This document shows positions 14,296 to 28,494 of a stretch of 64,000 bases of DNA, one piece after another. Within the stretch, counting starts at the first letter, position 1. The number at the start of each line of letters is the position of its first letter. Under the pieces are notes generated by a model. The model ran no database searches, was not told the origin of the DNA, and saw nothing but the letters and a program-made list of their open reading frames with translations. Both the position numbers and the translations under genes were made by a program. This stretch comes from Octopus vulgaris (taxonomy: Eukaryota): positions 14,756,001 to 14,820,000 of the forward strand of contig OX597820.1 of assembly GCA_951406725.2 (NCBI GenBank), read 5' to 3'.

Positions 14296-15155
14296 TACTA
14301 TTTGTTTATATTACCATTATTACTATTATTATTATTATTGTTTATATTTAGGGTGATGAAGTGGCCAAGAAATAGTAGAGCGTCTGACCAAATAAATGTC
14401 TTGCAGTATTTGGTCATGTCCTTTTATGTTCTGAGTTCAAATCCTGCCGAAGTCAACTTAGCTTTTCATCCCTCCGATCTTGATAAAATACGCACCAGTT
14501 ATGTACTGGGGTCAAATCAATCGACTATACCCTTCCTCTACACATTTGTGGCCTTGTGACAATGTAAGAGAAAATTATTATTATTGTTGTTATTATTATT
14601 ATTACTATTATTATTGATATTATTATTATCATTATTATTATATTATTATTATTATTATCATCGTCATCATCGTTTTGGTTGTACAATCAGAAGGGATTTG
14701 GTTTCTATTAGTAGAATCGAATTGCTTCTTGTCTTTAAAAAAAAATTTTTTTCTTCTCTTAATAATTTGATAGAATGTCTTTCTTCAAGCTTTGAGCTTT
14801 GAGAAACTTTCTTCATTTTCTTCATCTTCTTCTTCTTCTTCTTCTTCTTCTTAAGACAGAATCGTATCAGCAAAAGAAAAATGTTAAATGTTCAATTGAA
14901 TTCAAAAGAAAACTGTTATCTCGTTTTTAATCGTTGATTGAAGAGTTGGAAGAGCTGACTGGAGGATGCTCCATGCCCAAAACATCCATTTATGTACACA
15001 CACACACACACTCTCTCTCTCTCTATTGCTCCCTCTTTCTCTGTATATATCTCTCTCTTTTTCTGTCTTTCTTTTCTCTCTCCCTCCCTCTTTTATCTCC
15101 CTCCTCTCACTCTCTCTTTCACTGTGTATATATATATATATATATATATCTATAC

Positions 15156-21495: not shown

Positions 21496-21513
21496 ATGGA
21501 GTCCCAGCTTCAG
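21496..21513 (+). CDS. Predicted first coding segment (MESQLQ) of the CXXC gene
   Basis: Exon 21401-21513 is bounded by ttgctttagtttccttacAG and CAG|GTaatg. ATG at 21496 follows in-frame TGA TGA (21466-21471). The phase-0 donor joins in frame to ATT GGA GTG at 26592, giving MESQLQIGVASLSMSH... Confidence 0.65.
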
Positions 21514-21680
21514 GTAATGTGAAGTTGAGTTGGAAAAAAAATTAAATAAATAAAATTAAAATAAAACTAAAAAAAATGTAAACAAAGCAAAAAAAAAACA
21601 GGCATTTTATAGAATTTTTTTTCCTCTTTACATACCAAAAGCAACAGTAGACTGAAGCCAAGATCACCTCATGTATTATA

Positions 21681-21931
21681 CGAGGTGTTCAAAAAGTCTC
21701 TCCGCAGTGAGTATTTAGTGGTTTTCAGGTGCTTCTTGTACACTGATCCTTTACTTGCTCCCCAGGAAAGAAAAAAAAAAAAAAGAAGTCAGGCAGGCAG
21801 GATTAAATCAGGTGATATTCGTGGCCAAAGTCCCTTCAAAATAATCCATTCACTGGAAAATTCTTGAAGTAGTGCTATGGTGATGCGCAGCATGAAAAAT
21901 TTCACTGCTGAGAGACTTTTTGAACACCCTG
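21681..21931. mobile_element. Tc1/mariner-type MITE
   Basis: About 30-bp TIRs cgaggtgttcaaaaagtctctccgcagtga / tcactgctgagagactttttgaacaccctg, TA on both sides. Confidence 0.8.
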
Positions 21932-22687
21932 TATAACATACATACATGTGTGTGTATCGCTTACTTGCTTGCTTGATCCCTTAATTCTGGATGGAGCTGA
22001 TAGGGAGTGCCATCTTGATGCTATCTTGGTATATGGTATGTCTTGGATGTTAAAATTTGGCAGCACCCATCTTGTCCCTCTGTCTTCCAGGTTTGACCAA
22101 AACTGGTTCCTTCTTGAGAGAGTCACCTCCAGTCCTGGACTGCTACCTTAGGTATTGGCTCTGAAAAGATAGGAGGTGAAGTTGAACCCCACCTCCTGCT
22201 AATAGGGTTTGAACTCAGTGCATCAGGAACCAGAACAACAATTGCAAGGCAGGCTATCTGGTCCTCTAATAATTCTGCCTGTCATCATCATCAACACCAT
22301 CATTATCACAATCATTATCAATCACCATTATCATCATCACAATCATTATCATCACCAACACCACCACCACCACCACCATCATCCCCACTATCATCACCTT
22401 CATCATCATCATTGTTATTTACCGATATTTCTTCCATGTGACATAGGTTGGATAGTGCAACAGGAACCGACAAGCCATAGGATTACCCAGCACTCCAGTG
22501 TCTGCTTCAGCCCTTCTTAACGCCAACCACTTTACAGAGTGTACTAGGTGCTTTTTCTTTTTGGCACCAGTACTGGTGGGGGTCATCAAGTACTTGCATG
22601 ACAAAATCCCCTTGGCTGACTGGGATCTAGCATCAAGGGAGTTGAAGGTATGAAAGAGAGATAGGAACAGGGGTCTTTATGGCAACA

Positions 22688-23048
22688 ACATCATCATCAT
22701 CATCGTTTAACGTCCGCTTCAGCTTTCCATGCTAGCATGGGTTGGACGGTTCAACTGGTGTCTGGGAAGCCAGAAGGCTGTACCAGGCTCCAGTCTGATC
22801 TGGCGGTGTTTCTACAGCTGGATGCCCTTCCTAATGCCAACCACTCCGTGAGTGTAGTGGGTGCTTTTTATGTGCCAGGCGAGGCTGGCAATGGCCACGA
22901 ACGGATGGTGCTTTTTACGTGCCACTGGCACGGAAGCCAGTTAAGGTGGTGCTGGCATCGGCCACGTTCGGATGGTGCTTTTTACGTGCCACCGGCACAG
23001 GGATCACAACTACAATTTCCATTGATTTTTTATGTTGATGTACTTGAA
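22688..23048 (-). mobile_element. SINE family 1
   Basis: Reverse-complement homologue of 16455-16815. Confidence 0.8.
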
Positions 23049-23486
23049 CGAATTGGTAAAATCATTAGAGCCTCTGACAAAATGCCTTTGCAGTGTGTGT
23101 TCAGGCTCTTTACATTGTAATTTCAAATCCCTCTGAAGTCCGTTCTGCTGTTCAGTCTTCAATGATGATAAAATATATTTTATAATGAAAATAAAAATGC
23201 TGGGTCGTAGCCTTCTCTCCTTCCAATTGCCAAGGTCAGATATTTCCCTGGGTCAAGGGTGTCCAACTCATCTCACAAAGCTCTAACAAAAGTGTAGGGC
23301 ATGCTGACAGCAAGCCACATGATTACAAATGACTGCTGTGTTTTATATGTGTATTCATGTGTATGCATATGTATATATCTATATGCATGTATATGTATTC
23401 ATGTTTGTATGTATTTGTGTATATATGTGTATGCATATATATGTGTATATATGTGTGTATGTATATATATATATCTATGTATATAC

Positions 23487-23665
23487 CAAGGGTGTAGCTA
23501 GGGTGGCGCAAGCAGAGCACATGCCCTGCGTGCCACTTTGAGGGGGCGCAAATTTGGCCAAGTTCGTTTTCTAATTAAGCCATTTAAAAAATGGTTGTGT
23601 TTTTTTGGGGGGGGGCACAGTTTTTGTGCTTGCAGTGGGCACCATTTACCCCAGCTACACTCCTG
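23487..23665. mobile_element. hAT-type MITE
   Basis: TIRs caagggtgtagctagggt / accccagctacactcctg, exact 8-bp TSD gtatatac (23479-23486 and 23666-23673). Confidence 0.75.
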
Positions 23666-23798
23666 GTATATACATAAGTGTGTGTGTATGTAAATGTGTA
23701 TGTGTAAATATGTATGTGTGTATATATACATATTTGTCTTTTTGTTTATACAGATATGTGTGTGCATAAGTGTTATTTAGATAGGTGTATGTATGTAT

Positions 23799-23862
<64 letters not shown>

Positions 23863-24312
23863 TAATATACATATATACACATAGACATATATATATAATA
23901 TACATATATCTTTACATACATTGACTGCTTGTATGTTTTTAGTCTCTGCCAGACAAATTTTTTTCTTTTTTTTATGAATAATTGTGCTCTTTTCTATGGT
24001 GAAAGAATCGTTCAGTCATCATTTTCTTTTCTTTCTTCTTTGCCACAATATGGCATTAAAATGGCTCAATGGATAAAGTATTGATTTACAAACTCATAGA
24101 TCATAAGTTCAAATCTCTGTAAGGTAGCATTGTGTTTCAAGACTTGAACAGGTTATGTTATACAACAATTTTTATTATGTACTGTAACATGTCTTTTAAG
24201 TCAGGTTTCTGAAGAAAAGAATATGACAAAGATAAAAGGGACTCCTGTATCTAATGCTGGGGATATTTTGTTTTGTTTTATTTATTTATATATTTATTGT
24301 TGTTGTTGTTGT

Positions 24313-24530
24313 TAAGGCAGCAAAATGTCAGAATCCTTAGCATGCTGGGTGAAATGCTGAGTAGTATTTCATCCATCTTCATGTTCTGAGTTCAAATTCT
24401 GTGAAGGTCGACTTTGCCTTTCATCGTTTCAGGGTGGATGAAATAAGTACCAGTGAAATACTGGGGTTGATATAATCAACTAGTTCCCTCCCCAAAAATT
24501 TCAGGCCTTTCACCTTTAGCAGAAAGGATT
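24313..24530 (+). mobile_element. SINE family 2
   Basis: Same head, core and tail as the 12.3-kb copies. Further copies at about 14350-14580, 25091-25318, 41900-42105 and 43465-43680 (+), and 15915-16060 and 46490-46680 (-). Confidence 0.75.
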
Positions 24531-25875
24531 ATTATTATTATTATTGTTGAGTGAGAAAGAAGTGCATGCCATCAAAGCGACACTGGGGTACAAATATACG
24601 AAGCCCAGTACATCCGTCTGATAAAGGTGCACCAGCCACATGCATCACAACCATATGTGTACGACATGGTGATCTCATATCAAGATAAATAGCACATGAC
24701 CTTGCTGGTGGGGCCCAGTTAGAATTTTCTTCAGGTCAAGTAGCCTATCCCGGTCAAAAGTTCCCTGAATAAGGGTTAGCTAAAAATGTTGAACGAACCA
24801 CCCATGTTTCCAAAGGTGAATTATCCAAACCCCAAAGAAACCCTCTCAACACATGGCTATGATGCTCCCCCACTACTTCTGATCGTGATCAAAGAGGCAC
24901 ATATCGTCAGCCCCTAAGGGACTTGCTCAACTGGTTATGGTCAAACAACTGATAAGCAAATCTGTGGTATTGATCAGAATATTTGCTGTAGCCCATCTTT
25001 TATAACAAGACAGAACAATGTACATGACAACACTTCCAATCAGTTAAGATCAGAAGCCACTATTATAATTATTATTGTCATTATTATTTTTAGGTGGTAA
25101 GCTGACAGAATTATTAGCATGCTAGAACAAAATGTTTTGTGGCATTTCATCTGCCTTTATGTTCCAGATTCAAACTCTGCTGCGGTCAACTTTGTCTTTC
25201 GTCATTTCAGGGTCAATTAAATAAGTACCGGTCATCTACTGGGGTCGATGTAATCAACTAGCCCTGTACCTCACCTCCCTGCAATTTCAGGCCTTGTGCC
25301 TACAGCAGAATGGATTATTATTGTTATTTTTTTTTGTTTCATTTCGTACTTGAAAATTTGGCAGTATAAAACTAAGACTGTTTAGGAGAATGAGGAAATG
25401 GTCCTCATTTGTTGTTCTTCATTTCATGATTTGATTTAAGTCAATTAGAAGAGATTTTTGTTGGTAGTTTTGATGTTCATCTTTCATGTTCTTAAAACTG
25501 ACCAGATTAGCAACTTTACTCTTTTAAATCCTGAAGTGGTTTATTAGGCCAATATTTGCACAAAATCCATGGTTACAGTGGGGGGGGGGACATAATAGCA
25601 GAATCTGGATCTGGAGGGACCCTTGCTTTCCAAACAGACCTCTTCTTAATTTTTCTGATCATTTCTGATTCTGAGTGCAGTATTCTAAGTCTACACAACA
25701 CTATGTCACAATAACTGGACATGAACTCTAAGTTACACTTTTGCAGGGTTGTTTTAAGAGGGCTTTATGTCTCTGCCAAAACCCAACTGCTGTTTCGCCA
25801 ATGTTATACTTACTTAAATCTAGTCTAAGAGAGTTGACCTTAAAAAGAAAATCTGGTTGTTTTAGAACTATTTTA

Positions 25876-26291
25876 CTCTTTTACTTGTTTCATTCATTTG
25901 ACTGCAGCCATGCTGGAGCACCACCTTTAGTCGAGCAAATCGACCCCCAAGACTTATTCTTTGTAAACCTAGTACTTATTCTATCAGTCTCTTTTGCTAA
26001 ACTGCTAAGTTACGGTGACATAAACACACCAGCATTGGTTGTCAAGCAATGTTGGTGGAACAAACACAGACACACAAACATACACACACACACACACACA
26101 CACATACACACACACATATATATACATACATATATACGACAGGCTTCTTTCAGTTTCTGTCTACCAAATCCGCTCAAAACTTTGGTCGGCCCAAGGCTAT
26201 AGTAGAAGACACTTTTCCAAGGTGCCACGTAGTAGGACTGAACCCGGAACCATGTGGTTCGTAAGCAAGCTACTTACCACACAACCACTCA
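25876..26291 (-). mobile_element. tRNA-headed SINE family 3 with internal (CA)/(TA) microsatellite
   Basis: cttgtttcattcatttgactgcagccatgctggagcacc...ggctatagtagaagacact...aaccatgtggtt...cttaccacac. Other copies at about 962-1107, 17060-17355, 33210-33344, 35167-35490, 35573-35918, 39980-40170 and 47690-47998. Confidence 0.8.
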
Positions 26292-26591
26292 TACGCTTTA
26301 CATTTGACACTAATCTGAATGCTAAAGGGTTAAGTACTCTGATTATGTCTATTTTATTTTCTGTATTAATGTCCGAAACCTTTTGTATTCATGTCTATAA
26401 ACTCAAATAGGATTTCTATTTTTTTTCTTCTTTTGTGATTTCATGAATGGATAAACGATTCATTTTGGTTTCTTTATTTTAGGAAAATATATTACAATAT
26501 GTTTTTGATTTTTTTATCATTTGTTTTTGACATTTTGTTTATTGATTATAAACATCATTAACGTTGAGCTTTTTGTCTTTGTGTTTTCCAG

Positions 26592-28094
26592 ATTGGAGTG
26601 GCCAGTCTTAGTATGTCACATGGTGGTCATCGACCTGAGGAAATGAAGTCTGACTCTGTACACCCTCACATTGCCGGTCACCATCATCATCCTGGTCATC
26701 ACCATACAGCAGAGGAAGAAGAGTATGTTATTGAAGTGGACAGTGATCTAAGCCCCACAGGGCCAGATATTATCAGGGAGGTGGATCATGACCACCACAA
26801 TGTAAAAGTGAAATTGAAACGGAGGCGGCGTTGTGGAATTTGTGGTCCTTGTCAAATCAAGCAGAACTGCGGCCGTTGTCACTACTGTCTGCGTCGGGAT
26901 GTCTTAAAGCAGACATGTGTCTACCGCAAGTGTGTCTACTTGAGGAGCAAACCACGGAGCATGAGCCCAAAGGAAAATGTTTCTATGTCTGCTCTCAACT
27001 TGCAGTCAGGACTTGGCGTTGCCACACCAACGGACCTTAGTATCCGAACCAGCCTAACGCAAACTACTTCAGGGACGTCTTCGAATGACTTTCAAGGACT
27101 CTCGTCTATGTACCACCATCCAGATCTTGATTCGAGAGCCTTCACTGGTAGTTCGCCCTCAATTCCATTGCATCATGATCCGGTCATCCCATCAAGGATG
27201 AACCCGTATATGGGAGGTGCTCACACTGGACCTTACCCAATCAATATGTTTCCTAGCAGCAGTTTAGCTGCCAACTCAAGTTTACCAAGTCCATTTCAGA
27301 TGGGTAGCTGTAGTAATAGCCCGTTCCGGTATCCTTGGATGCCCGGTTCATTTGCAAGACCATCTGTTGTGTCCAGTCCCACTGATCTTCTCCGGCCATC
27401 GCCATCTTGGCCTCCCCCTCCGCCACCAACTCATGGACTTTCCTCCACGCACCAAAGAATGGCTTCAGACTTTGGCGCAAACTCATTTCAAAAGGATATG
27501 CCATTTATGAAACGGCGCTCGCAACAGGATCTTTTGCAAAATAGACAGAGACTTCCATCTTGTAGCAGATCGCTGGCTCCAATGTGTGGAAGTTCCCCTA
27601 GTGGGTGTGAGACCCCAGCTTGTTTCAACTCGGATGCATTGGTAATGCGTGAAAAATACAGCTGTTTCCCTGGGCAGGGCTCTCGATCTATAGGCTGCGA
27701 CAATAGTGGTCACATGACATCAGGGACTTTGAATAGTAGCTACAACCGAGGATGTGCATCGTCACAGCATGAGTGTGACGTCATCGGCATTGACGATTTG
27801 CAGGTGAATGCCTTTATCAGAGCTAGTGGCTATAACGGTTTAGACATAGAGGTAGATATATCAAAATTGCCTATTGTACCCAGCAGTGGGAAGAGTAAAG
27901 GCAAATCCACTCTCAATGGAATGGTAAGCATTACGCAGGACTTAGGAGACAAGGGTACTGTGGAATTACAGGTACCAGGGTACAAAGTAACCTTAGAAGA
28001 TCACATTAATGTCGATGAAATGCTTGCCAAGTACACTCGTAGTTTAAAACCTAGTTACGCTTTGAAACAACCAAAGATTGAATTAATAGATTAG
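26592..28094 (+). CDS. Large terminal coding exon of a CXXC zinc-finger protein (TET/IDAX-type CXXC; CXXC4/CXXC5-like domain)
   Basis: 500 open codons to TAG at 28092-28094. Polypyrimidine tract and AG acceptor (tttttgtctttgtgttttccag, AG at 26590-26591). Encodes KLKRRRR-CGICGPC-QIKQN-CGRCHYC-LRRDVLKQT-CVYRKC (Cys codons 26832-26933), the 8-Cys zf-CXXC pattern without KFGG. Complex, GC-richer sequence unlike the flanks. Confidence 0.92.
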   Translation: MGVASLSMSHGGHRPEEMKSDSVHPHIAGHHHHPGHHHTAEEEEYVIEVDSDLSPTGPDIIREVDHDHHNVKVKLKRRRRCGICGPCQIKQNCGRCHYCLRRDVLKQTCVYRKCVYLRSKPRSMSPKENVSMSALNLQSGLGVATPTDLSIRTSLTQTTSGTSSNDFQGLSSMYHHPDLDSRAFTGSSPSIPLHHDPVIPSRMNPYMGGAHTGPYPINMFPSSSLAANSSLPSPFQMGSCSNSPFRYPWMPGSFARPSVVSSPTDLLRPSPSWPPPPPPTHGLSSTHQRMASDFGANSFQKDMPFMKRRSQQDLLQNRQRLPSCSRSLAPMCGSSPSGCETPACFNSDALVMREKYSCFPGQGSRSIGCDNSGHMTSGTLNSSYNRGCASSQHECDVIGIDDLQVNAFIRASGYNGLDIEVDISKLPIVPSSGKSKGKSTLNGMVSITQDLGDKGTVELQVPGYKVTLEDHINVDEMLAKYTRSLKPSYALKQPKIELID

Positions 28095-28494
28095 GGAACT
28101 AATTGTTTTATTTCTCTCATCTTTTCTTCTTTAATAATTTGGGGACTGTCGAAGTATTATGTGTGATTGTTTGCGTAGGATATACATATATTATACTCAC
28201 TCATGCGTGTATCTGTGATTGTTTGTGTACATGTATGTATATGATACATACAGACATGCATACATACATATATACATACTGACAGAGAGATTTTAAAGTT
28301 TTGCAAAAAATACTTGATGCAATCACAATACTTAAAAAAAGGTTTTCTTAAAAATTATCAACTTTTTAAAAAATTCTTTTAGTTAGACAGAATGACATGG
28401 ATCTTATACAAAGAAGTTTTGGGTCTTTCCAAGAGGTTTGTGTCATTCGGTTTTTCAAAAAAATTTTCTAAACATAACTTTTAAGAAAACCTTA

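What the first reader, a model, noticed from the sequence alone, without database searches (positions are those of the whole stretch)
21496..28094. Stand-alone TET/IDAX-type CXXC protein with a KQ rather than HQ recognition loop
Seen: an about 506-aa protein whose only recognisable domain is an N-proximal CXXC (CGICGPC-x5-CGRCHYC-LRRDVLKQT-CVYRKC), followed by a long S/P-rich region and a stop, with no dioxygenase, SET, JmjC or methyltransferase domain. Established: this short linker without KFGG is the TET1/TET3/CXXC4(IDAX)/CXXC5 architecture, whose DNA-contact loop reads HQ, while MLL and KDM2 CXXC domains, which bind unmethylated CpG strictly, carry KQ. Vertebrate CXXC4/5 place the domain at the C-terminus. 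Inference: a hybrid-specificity, non-catalytic reader of unmethylated CpG, possibly a mollusc/cephalopod CXXC family or an independent split from TET. This is the best candidate for an undescribed regulatory component in the window.
Basis: partly seen in the sequence, partly recalled or inferred. Interest (0 to 1): 0.75.

Follow-up and report, generated by a model that had tools for sequence, protein, structure and literature searches.

The report
Conserved mollusc stand-alone CXXC reader gene
This octopus gene, shared with clams, snails and chitons, encodes a non-enzymatic zinc-finger protein that likely binds unmethylated DNA and carries an undescribed, optionally spliced end domain, and it may stand in for the DNA-targeting finger that the octopus demethylase TET appears to lack.

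Summary
The gene is real. The exon at 26592-28094 encodes a short-linker (type-3, TET/IDAX-like) CXXC finger with an L-K-Q loop and no catalytic domain. It is not a TET N-terminus: TET lies on another contig, and no catalytic exon lies in 264 kb around the locus. Transcript-like contigs end either at the stop or in a 19-codon terminal exon.

(1) The exon at 21496 is unsupported; two other first exons are used.
(2) A conserved C-terminal domain with no Pfam match was missed. It is present in 28 of 39 family rows, and octopus splices it out in two alternative forms.
(3) KQ is not a unique hybrid: Hydra TET and others also carry it, so stricter CpG specificity does not follow.

The family spans cephalopods, bivalves, gastropods and a chiton, with a CXXC-only relative in Dicyema. 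It is the only type-3 CXXC found in this genome, whose TET shows none. The trees place it beside, not inside, the TET/CXXC4/5 clade, so a split from TET is unproven. Verdict: an uncharacterised, conserved, non-catalytic reader, likely of unmethylated CpG; a new variant of a known kind.

The parts
26592..28094 (+). Main coding exon, 500 codons plus stop; holds the CXXC, the low-complexity middle and the C-terminal domain
   Evidence: contig cover starts exactly at 26592 in 4 of 4 runs, and one contig spans 26592-28157
26712..26741 (+). Short acidic-hydrophobic N-terminal motif (residues 41-50), the second half of a motif kept in most family members; resembles a SUMO-interacting motif (pattern recalled, untested)
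   Evidence: a matching motif in 27 of 33 rows examined
26811..26954 (+). Type-3 (short-linker) zf-CXXC with basic flanks, residues 74-121
   Evidence: 79% mean identity to 18 homologues outside the octopus cluster
26904..26912 (+). L-K-Q tripeptide at the major-groove recognition position
   Evidence: sequence; LKQ with a 9-residue linker in 28 of 28 rows that have both a complete CXXC and a C-terminal domain half
26955..27767 (+). S/P-rich, poorly conserved middle, predicted disordered
   Evidence: 18% mean identity; pLDDT mostly under 50
27768..28091 (+). Conserved C-terminal domain with no Pfam match: two predicted three-stranded beta-meanders plus helices, separated by a variable insert
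   Evidence: no Pfam hit on 5 of 5 stand-alone fragments; single copy in the genome search
27641..27643 (+). Alternative in-frame GT donor that removes the whole C-terminal domain (joins the terminal exon at C7:14860657)
   Evidence: loose ends in 2 of 4 runs; annotated isoforms P0022, P0023 and the same end in P0003, P0004
27803..27805 (+). Second alternative in-frame GT donor that keeps only the first predicted strand of the C-terminal domain
   Evidence: loose ends in 3 of 4 runs; isoforms P0026-P0028, P0030
14501..14563 (+). Upstream exon (5' edge not mapped) lying in a dispersed repeat; adds 21 codons in annotated isoforms
   Evidence: 8 further copies in the window and 16 hits in 200 kb of an unrelated region
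21496..21513 (+).
   Evidence: GT donor present; not among the 22 of 24 loose ends shown

Best explanation
The gene encodes a stand-alone, non-catalytic protein, conserved across molluscs, whose type-3 CXXC finger likely binds unmethylated CpG-rich DNA and whose C-terminal domain is predicted to recruit a partner protein there. SHOWN: the domain content, the independence from the TET locus, the conservation, and three 3' forms in transcript-like contigs. INFERRED from solved CXXC structures: two Zn ions, the L-K-Q loop in the major groove, basic flanks in the minor groove, and exclusion by 5mC. With the short linker, specificity would probably be TET3-like (unmethylated C with a CpG preference) rather than strict. 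INFERRED from conservation only: the C-terminal domain is an interaction module, and splicing it out in cephalopods would yield a DNA-binding form without that effector. The likeliest job is to mark unmethylated promoter-like DNA in a mosaic methylome, working like IDAX/CXXC5. The partner is unknown; TET is the leading candidate (about 0.3).
For: All eight Cys, the basic flanks and LKQ are kept. Octopus identity over 44 CXXC positions is 34-37 to bivalves, 32-33 to gastropods, 31 to a chiton and 27 to Dicyema, against 19-23 to TET, CXXC4 and CXXC5 rows (names). The C-terminal domain occurs in 28 of 39 rows with the family CXXC motif and in 0 of 64 rows with another complete CXXC. TET catalytic exons lie on C1 at 186.53 Mb. 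Eight TET queries hit only the CXXC in 264 kb around this locus. At the TET locus, 0 of 59 hits in 200 kb overlap a CXXC. An HQ-type query finds only this locus in the genome. Guynes 2024 (PMC11292947, passages) state that spiralian TETs lack CXXC. The binding mode is from Long 2013 (PMC3685328, section 5).
Against: No DNA binding was measured, and some CXXC domains bind weakly or not at all: Long 2013 report conflicting data for TET1. Eleven of 39 family rows lack the C-terminal domain (short cephalopod isoforms, several gastropods, Dicyema; some may be truncated gene calls), so it is dispensable in places. The octopus C-terminal helix departs from the family pattern. The domain's two halves were not packed with confidence (pTM 0.30). 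The runs are only guessed to be RNA, although exact GT/AG joints over 12-79 kb argue for spliced RNA. The genome searches score only first-look candidates (40, 2 and 9), so a missed CXXC exon is possible.
Confidence: 0.68

Rival explanations
1. Origin rival A: the gene is the CXXC module that split from ancestral spiralian TET, an independent IDAX-like event, and it still targets or regulates TET in trans.
For: It is the only type-3 CXXC found in a genome whose TET shows none. Spiralian TETs are reported to lack CXXC. The TET2/CXXC4 split is a precedent (PMC3653909 passage), and honeybee TET makes stand-alone CXXC transcripts (PMC4150289 passage). All short-linker rows form one side of a branch at 83/67. 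Nesting with vertebrate TET1/CXXC4/CXXC5 is not rejected, p-AU 0.084.
Against: The best tree keeps the 24 TET-like rows, cnidarian and vertebrate, together without the family at 98/93. A stricter nesting constraint was rejected, p-AU 0.003, though it also displaced unnamed rows. The gene and TET are on different contigs. No TET resemblance was found outside the finger.
Confidence: 0.35
2. Origin rival B: it is an old, separate type-3 paralogue (perhaps related to stand-alone short-linker KQ proteins such as the Sycon one), or a type-1 finger that lost its KFGG linker on its own. It works with partners unrelated to TET.
For: Tree position outside the TET-like clade, next to the sponge rows. The second half of the finger is closest to the two sponge-group rows (0.44), against 0.35 for TET-HQ and 0.32 for type-1. 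Grouping with octopus KDM2 is not rejected, p-AU 0.255.
Against: Only 49-50 columns, with long-branch warnings. The first half is closer to TET rows (0.43-0.45) than to type-1 (0.34). No named deuterostome, arthropod or cnidarian family member was seen among the 106 hits, of which only 20 were looked up for names.
Confidence: 0.5
3. It is simply the 5' part of a TET or another enzyme gene.
For: Automatic names call some members TET1 or TET3-like.
Against: In-frame stop with contigs running past it. The alternative end is a 19-codon terminal exon with its own stop. TET is on C1. The search for longer relatives gave 2 of 2 proteins with CXXC only. Six of six long family members scanned hit only zf-CXXC.
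Confidence: 0.02
4. The finger mainly serves protein or RNA binding, like the Dishevelled binding recalled for IDAX/CXXC5, and DNA reading is secondary.
For: The surface residues around the last Cys are nearly invariant across molluscs, more than DNA contact alone would need (inference).
Against: The DNA-contact tripeptide and basic flanks are intact.
Confidence: 0.15

Closest known systems
CXXC4 (IDAX) and CXXC5 (RINF) of vertebrates
   Same: Non-catalytic protein with one type-3 CXXC: 9-residue linker, no KFGG.
   Different: The finger is N-proximal here. In the CXXC4-like row P0141 it starts at 229 of 361; a C-terminal position in CXXC4/5 is recalled. LKQ replaces GHQ. Only 19-20 of 44 positions are identical. 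It has its own C-terminal domain and lies outside their clade in the best tree.
TET1/TET3 and invertebrate TET CXXC
   Same: Best sequence match of the finger (TET1, E 2e-10). N-proximal position. KQ is also seen in Hydra TET.
   Different: No Cys-rich or dioxygenase domain; a separate locus.
Type-1 CXXC proteins (KDM2, MLL, CFP1, DNMT1)
   Same: K-Q dipeptide at the recognition loop.
   Different: No KFGG linker and no catalytic or PHD domains. Octopus has separate loci for these: KDM2 confirmed by PDB match; the others labelled DNMT1, CFP1 and MLL from recalled motifs.

Membership tests
zf-CXXC (PF02008) | Eight Cys in the CxxCxxC-x4/5-CxxCxxC-linker-C-x4-C pattern; score over the curated cut-off | tested here: met
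   29.7 bits against 26.5; sequence
Type-3 CXXC (Long 2013) | Truncated linker without KFGG | tested here: met
   9-residue linker that aligns without a gap to TET1, CXXC4 and CXXC5
Type-3 CXXC (Long 2013) | HQ dipeptide | tested here: not met
   KQ at 26907-26912. HQ is not universal among TET-type fingers either: Hydra TET has KQ
Type-1 CXXC | Long linker with KFGG | tested here: not met
TET dioxygenases | Tet_JBP catalytic domain in the same gene | tested here: not met
CXXC4/CXXC5 orthologues | Groups with CXXC4/5 in a tree | tested here: inconclusive
   Outside the TET-like clade in the best tree (98/93), but nesting is not rejected, p-AU 0.084 on 49 columns
IDAX-like split from TET | Linkage to the TET gene that lost the finger | tested here: not met
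   C7 versus C1 in this genome. Cephalopod genomes are heavily rearranged (recalled), and no other mollusc could be tested
IDAX-like split from TET | Physical or regulatory link to TET | not testable with these tools
   Needs co-immunoprecipitation or knock-down
CXXC DNA readers | Methylation-sensitive binding to CpG or unmethylated C | not testable with these tools
   Inferred from conserved contact residues only
Any known fold (C-terminal domain) | Significant sequence or structure match | tested here: inconclusive
   Model pLDDT 66, pTM 0.30; see Tried and rejected

The most novel reading that the evidence does not exclude
Spiralians split the CXXC finger off TET independently of vertebrate TET2/IDAX. 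This gene is the surviving trans-acting targeting subunit: it docks TET, through the finger or the new C-terminal domain, on unmethylated CpG DNA, and cephalopods tune that docking by splicing the domain in or out. That would undercut the published inference that spiralian demethylation is untargeted because TET has no CXXC.
Probability: 0.2. Interest if true: 0.8.

Novelty: new variant of a known kind. Interest (0 to 1): 0.52.

Why it matters
Guynes et al. 2024 use the missing CXXC of spiralian TET to support untargeted, global demethylation in annelids. A strongly conserved type-3 finger in four mollusc classes, apparently the only one in this octopus genome, gives a concrete candidate for reading unmethylated DNA in these mosaic methylomes. 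It also makes 'who targets TET in Spiralia' testable with one gene. It adds a domain with no Pfam family, and it explains database entries wrongly named TET1 or TET3-like. If it proves unrelated to TET, it remains a fifth, unstudied CXXC reader in molluscs: useful but less surprising.

Tried and rejected
Fold of the C-terminal domain:
- No PDB sequence match better than E 0.018.
- Foldseek gave 0 matches at E<=0.001.
- VIA-align best Z was 2.6 among 48,161 chains, covering mostly residues 1-48.
- The Atlas gave no feature hit. Structure neighbours of the oyster homologue had TM 0.43-0.49 (BPI-like and helix-grip rows), all under the bar.
- None of this shows a new fold.

Structure jobs:
- The full-length model was uninformative (pLDDT 43).
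- Homodimer of the oyster C-terminal domain: no answer, score 0.00, alignment not used.

Other ideas tested:
- That the N-terminal motif and the two halves of the domain are internal repeats: rejected, hhalign probability under 1% in 3 of 3 pairs.
- A second genomic copy: only a weak hit with two stops on C5, treated as noise.
- No listed sequencing holder is on record as RNA. Contig depth was not used to rank isoforms.
- No run was laid across 21496.

Trees: four long type-1 rows (P0161, P0132, P0112, P0148) and the H/K column were dropped. The long Hydra row was only in the tree, where the KDM2 locus was mislabelled MLL (corrected).

Literature: eight full-text searches listed no description of this family. 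Three papers that might bear on it were not held, and Gerdol 2021 was seen only as a reference. No supplements were read; the supplementary figures of Guynes 2024 may bear on TET domain content.

Earlier scan notes: none found.
Full report
1. Observation. The window is octopus DNA: the protein is 99% identical to an Octopus bimaculoides protein named 'uncharacterized'. An open frame runs from the AG acceptor at 26592 to a stop at 28094. Residues 74-114 are a zf-CXXC above the Pfam cut-off, and no other family hits. The linker between Cys6 and Cys7 has 9 residues and no KFGG. It aligns without gaps to TET1, CXXC4 and CXXC5, which outrank MLL, MBD1 and DNMT1.

2. Gene structure. Four runs from four studies, guessed to be RNA and held as contigs, were laid on 26300-28460. 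Cover begins at 26592 in all four. The loose 5' ends match an exon ending at window 14563 (3 runs), which lies in a dispersed repeat, and an exon at C7:14689826 (2 runs). At the 3' side, one contig runs from 26592 to 28157, through the stop. Others leave at in-frame GT donors at 27641 (2 runs) and 27803 (3 runs) for an exon at C7:14860657 that encodes 19 residues and a stop. Annotated Octopus and Argonauta isoforms end in the same peptide, as do unnamed 88-89% identical relatives. The gene spans at least 171 kb.

3. It is not TET. The Tet_JBP exons lie on C1 at 186.53 Mb. Eight full TET proteins hit only the CXXC in 264 kb around this locus, while the same queries gave 46 hits at the TET locus. 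In 200 kb at the TET locus, 0 of 59 relaxed hits overlap a TET CXXC, and a motif scan found none. Pfam found four other CXXC genes in the genome, those with a visible linker being type-1; one is KDM2. An HQ-type query found only this locus. These searches score limited candidates, so absence is likely, not proven. It agrees with Guynes 2024, who write that TET in annelids and other spiralians lacks the CXXC (passages), and with the chaetognath genome paper (PMC12460157, passages).

4. A conserved family with a second domain. Searches gave 122 rows. Of these, 39 have the family CXXC motif. Named members come from scallops, oysters, an ark clam, a pearl oyster, abalones, limpets, Plakobranchus, the chiton Liolophura and Dicyema japonicum. 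Mean identity to 18 homologues is 79% in the finger, 18% in the middle, and 57% and 46% in two C-terminal blocks. Those blocks occur in 28 of the 39 rows and in 0 of 64 rows with another complete CXXC; ten further rows hold them without a complete finger, several plainly fragments. They have no Pfam match. AlphaFold2 predicts two three-stranded meanders and helices with local pLDDT 70-90 but pTM 0.30, and no fold could be assigned. The two alternative donors remove it wholly or mostly.

5. KQ is not special. Outside the family, short-linker rows from the representative search read HQ 32, KQ 20, RQ 2 and KK 1 (the KQ profile inflates KQ). The KQ rows include Hydra vulgaris TET with its catalytic domain, a Dallia fish protein and a Sycon protein. 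Long 2013 define type-3 by the short linker and HQ in mouse. They attribute the looser TET3 specificity to the short linker and lost stabilising bonds (section 5 read). So stricter CpG reading does not follow from K. What is notable is that LKQ is invariant within this family.

6. Origin. Trees use only about 50 columns and carry long-branch warnings. With the H/K column and four long rows removed, all 40 short-linker rows form one side at 83/67. The 24 TET-like rows group without the family at 98/93, and the sponge-group rows fall between. Forcing the family in with all TET-like rows except two named cnidarians was rejected (p-AU 0.003), but that constraint also moved unnamed rows. The looser nesting with rows matching vertebrate TET1, CXXC4 and CXXC5 was not rejected (0.084), and neither was grouping with KDM2 (0.255). 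The tree leans to an old separate paralogue. The complementary pattern, a TET without a finger and one free finger, leans to a split. I put these at about 0.5 and 0.35.

7. Mechanism. Shown: domain content, independence from TET, conservation and isoforms. Inferred from solved homologues: Zn-bound crescent fold, LKQ in the major groove, basic flanks in the minor groove, and blocking by 5mC, with probably TET3-like tolerance. Inferred from conservation alone: the C-terminal domain binds a partner, the disordered middle tethers it, and cephalopod splicing makes forms without it. It would work like IDAX/CXXC5, marking unmethylated DNA for another factor, without being shown to be their orthologue.

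8. Literature. Eight searches listed no account of this family. The cephalopod epigenetic survey (PMC9476566), the Platynereis survey (PMC8330077) and the gastropod review (PMC11050768) contain the word CXXC 0 times in their main text. The Nautilus paper (PMC12532940) uses it only for DNMT1. Passages of PMC8286816, PMC3653909 and PMC4150289 were read. Three relevant papers were not held and no supplements were seen, so an earlier mention cannot be excluded.

9. Verdict. A real, expressed-looking, uncharacterised gene family with a new domain combination: a new variant of a known kind.

Noticed in passing
window 14340-14570: The upstream exon used in 3 of 4 runs lies in a dispersed, SINE-like repeat (8 more copies in the window). 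It adds an in-frame ATG and 21 codons, and is shared by O. bimaculoides and O. sinensis annotations: a likely exonised repeat.
   Followed up: partly
protein P0087: A two-CXXC protein annotated as Octopus sinensis on a 485-kb contig is not found in this genome. It groups with the Dicyema japonicum protein and may be contamination from the octopus kidney parasite.
   Followed up: partly
proteins P0068, P0085, P0088, P0090, P0091, P0086: Several gastropod members, Plakobranchus among them, keep the finger but show no C-terminal domain; this may be lineage-specific loss or an artefact of gene calling.
   Followed up: no
proteins P0006, P0023, P0168: Databases name some members 'TET1' or 'TET3-like' although they have no catalytic domain; TET counts in molluscs could be inflated by them.
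   Followed up: partly
window 26712-26741 and 27771-27800: Two hydrophobic-acidic stretches resemble SUMO-interacting motifs (pattern recalled). The donor at 27803 keeps the second while dropping the rest of the domain.
   Followed up: no
G000:C1:186553600-186585600: Octopus TET has a 1020-codon open exon and a 260-codon open exon upstream of the catalytic exons, with no CXXC motif in about 135 kb beyond them.
   Followed up: partly
proteins P0100, P0123: Unnamed proteins combine a short-linker RQ CXXC with C2H2 fingers, another stand-alone type-3 architecture.
   Followed up: no
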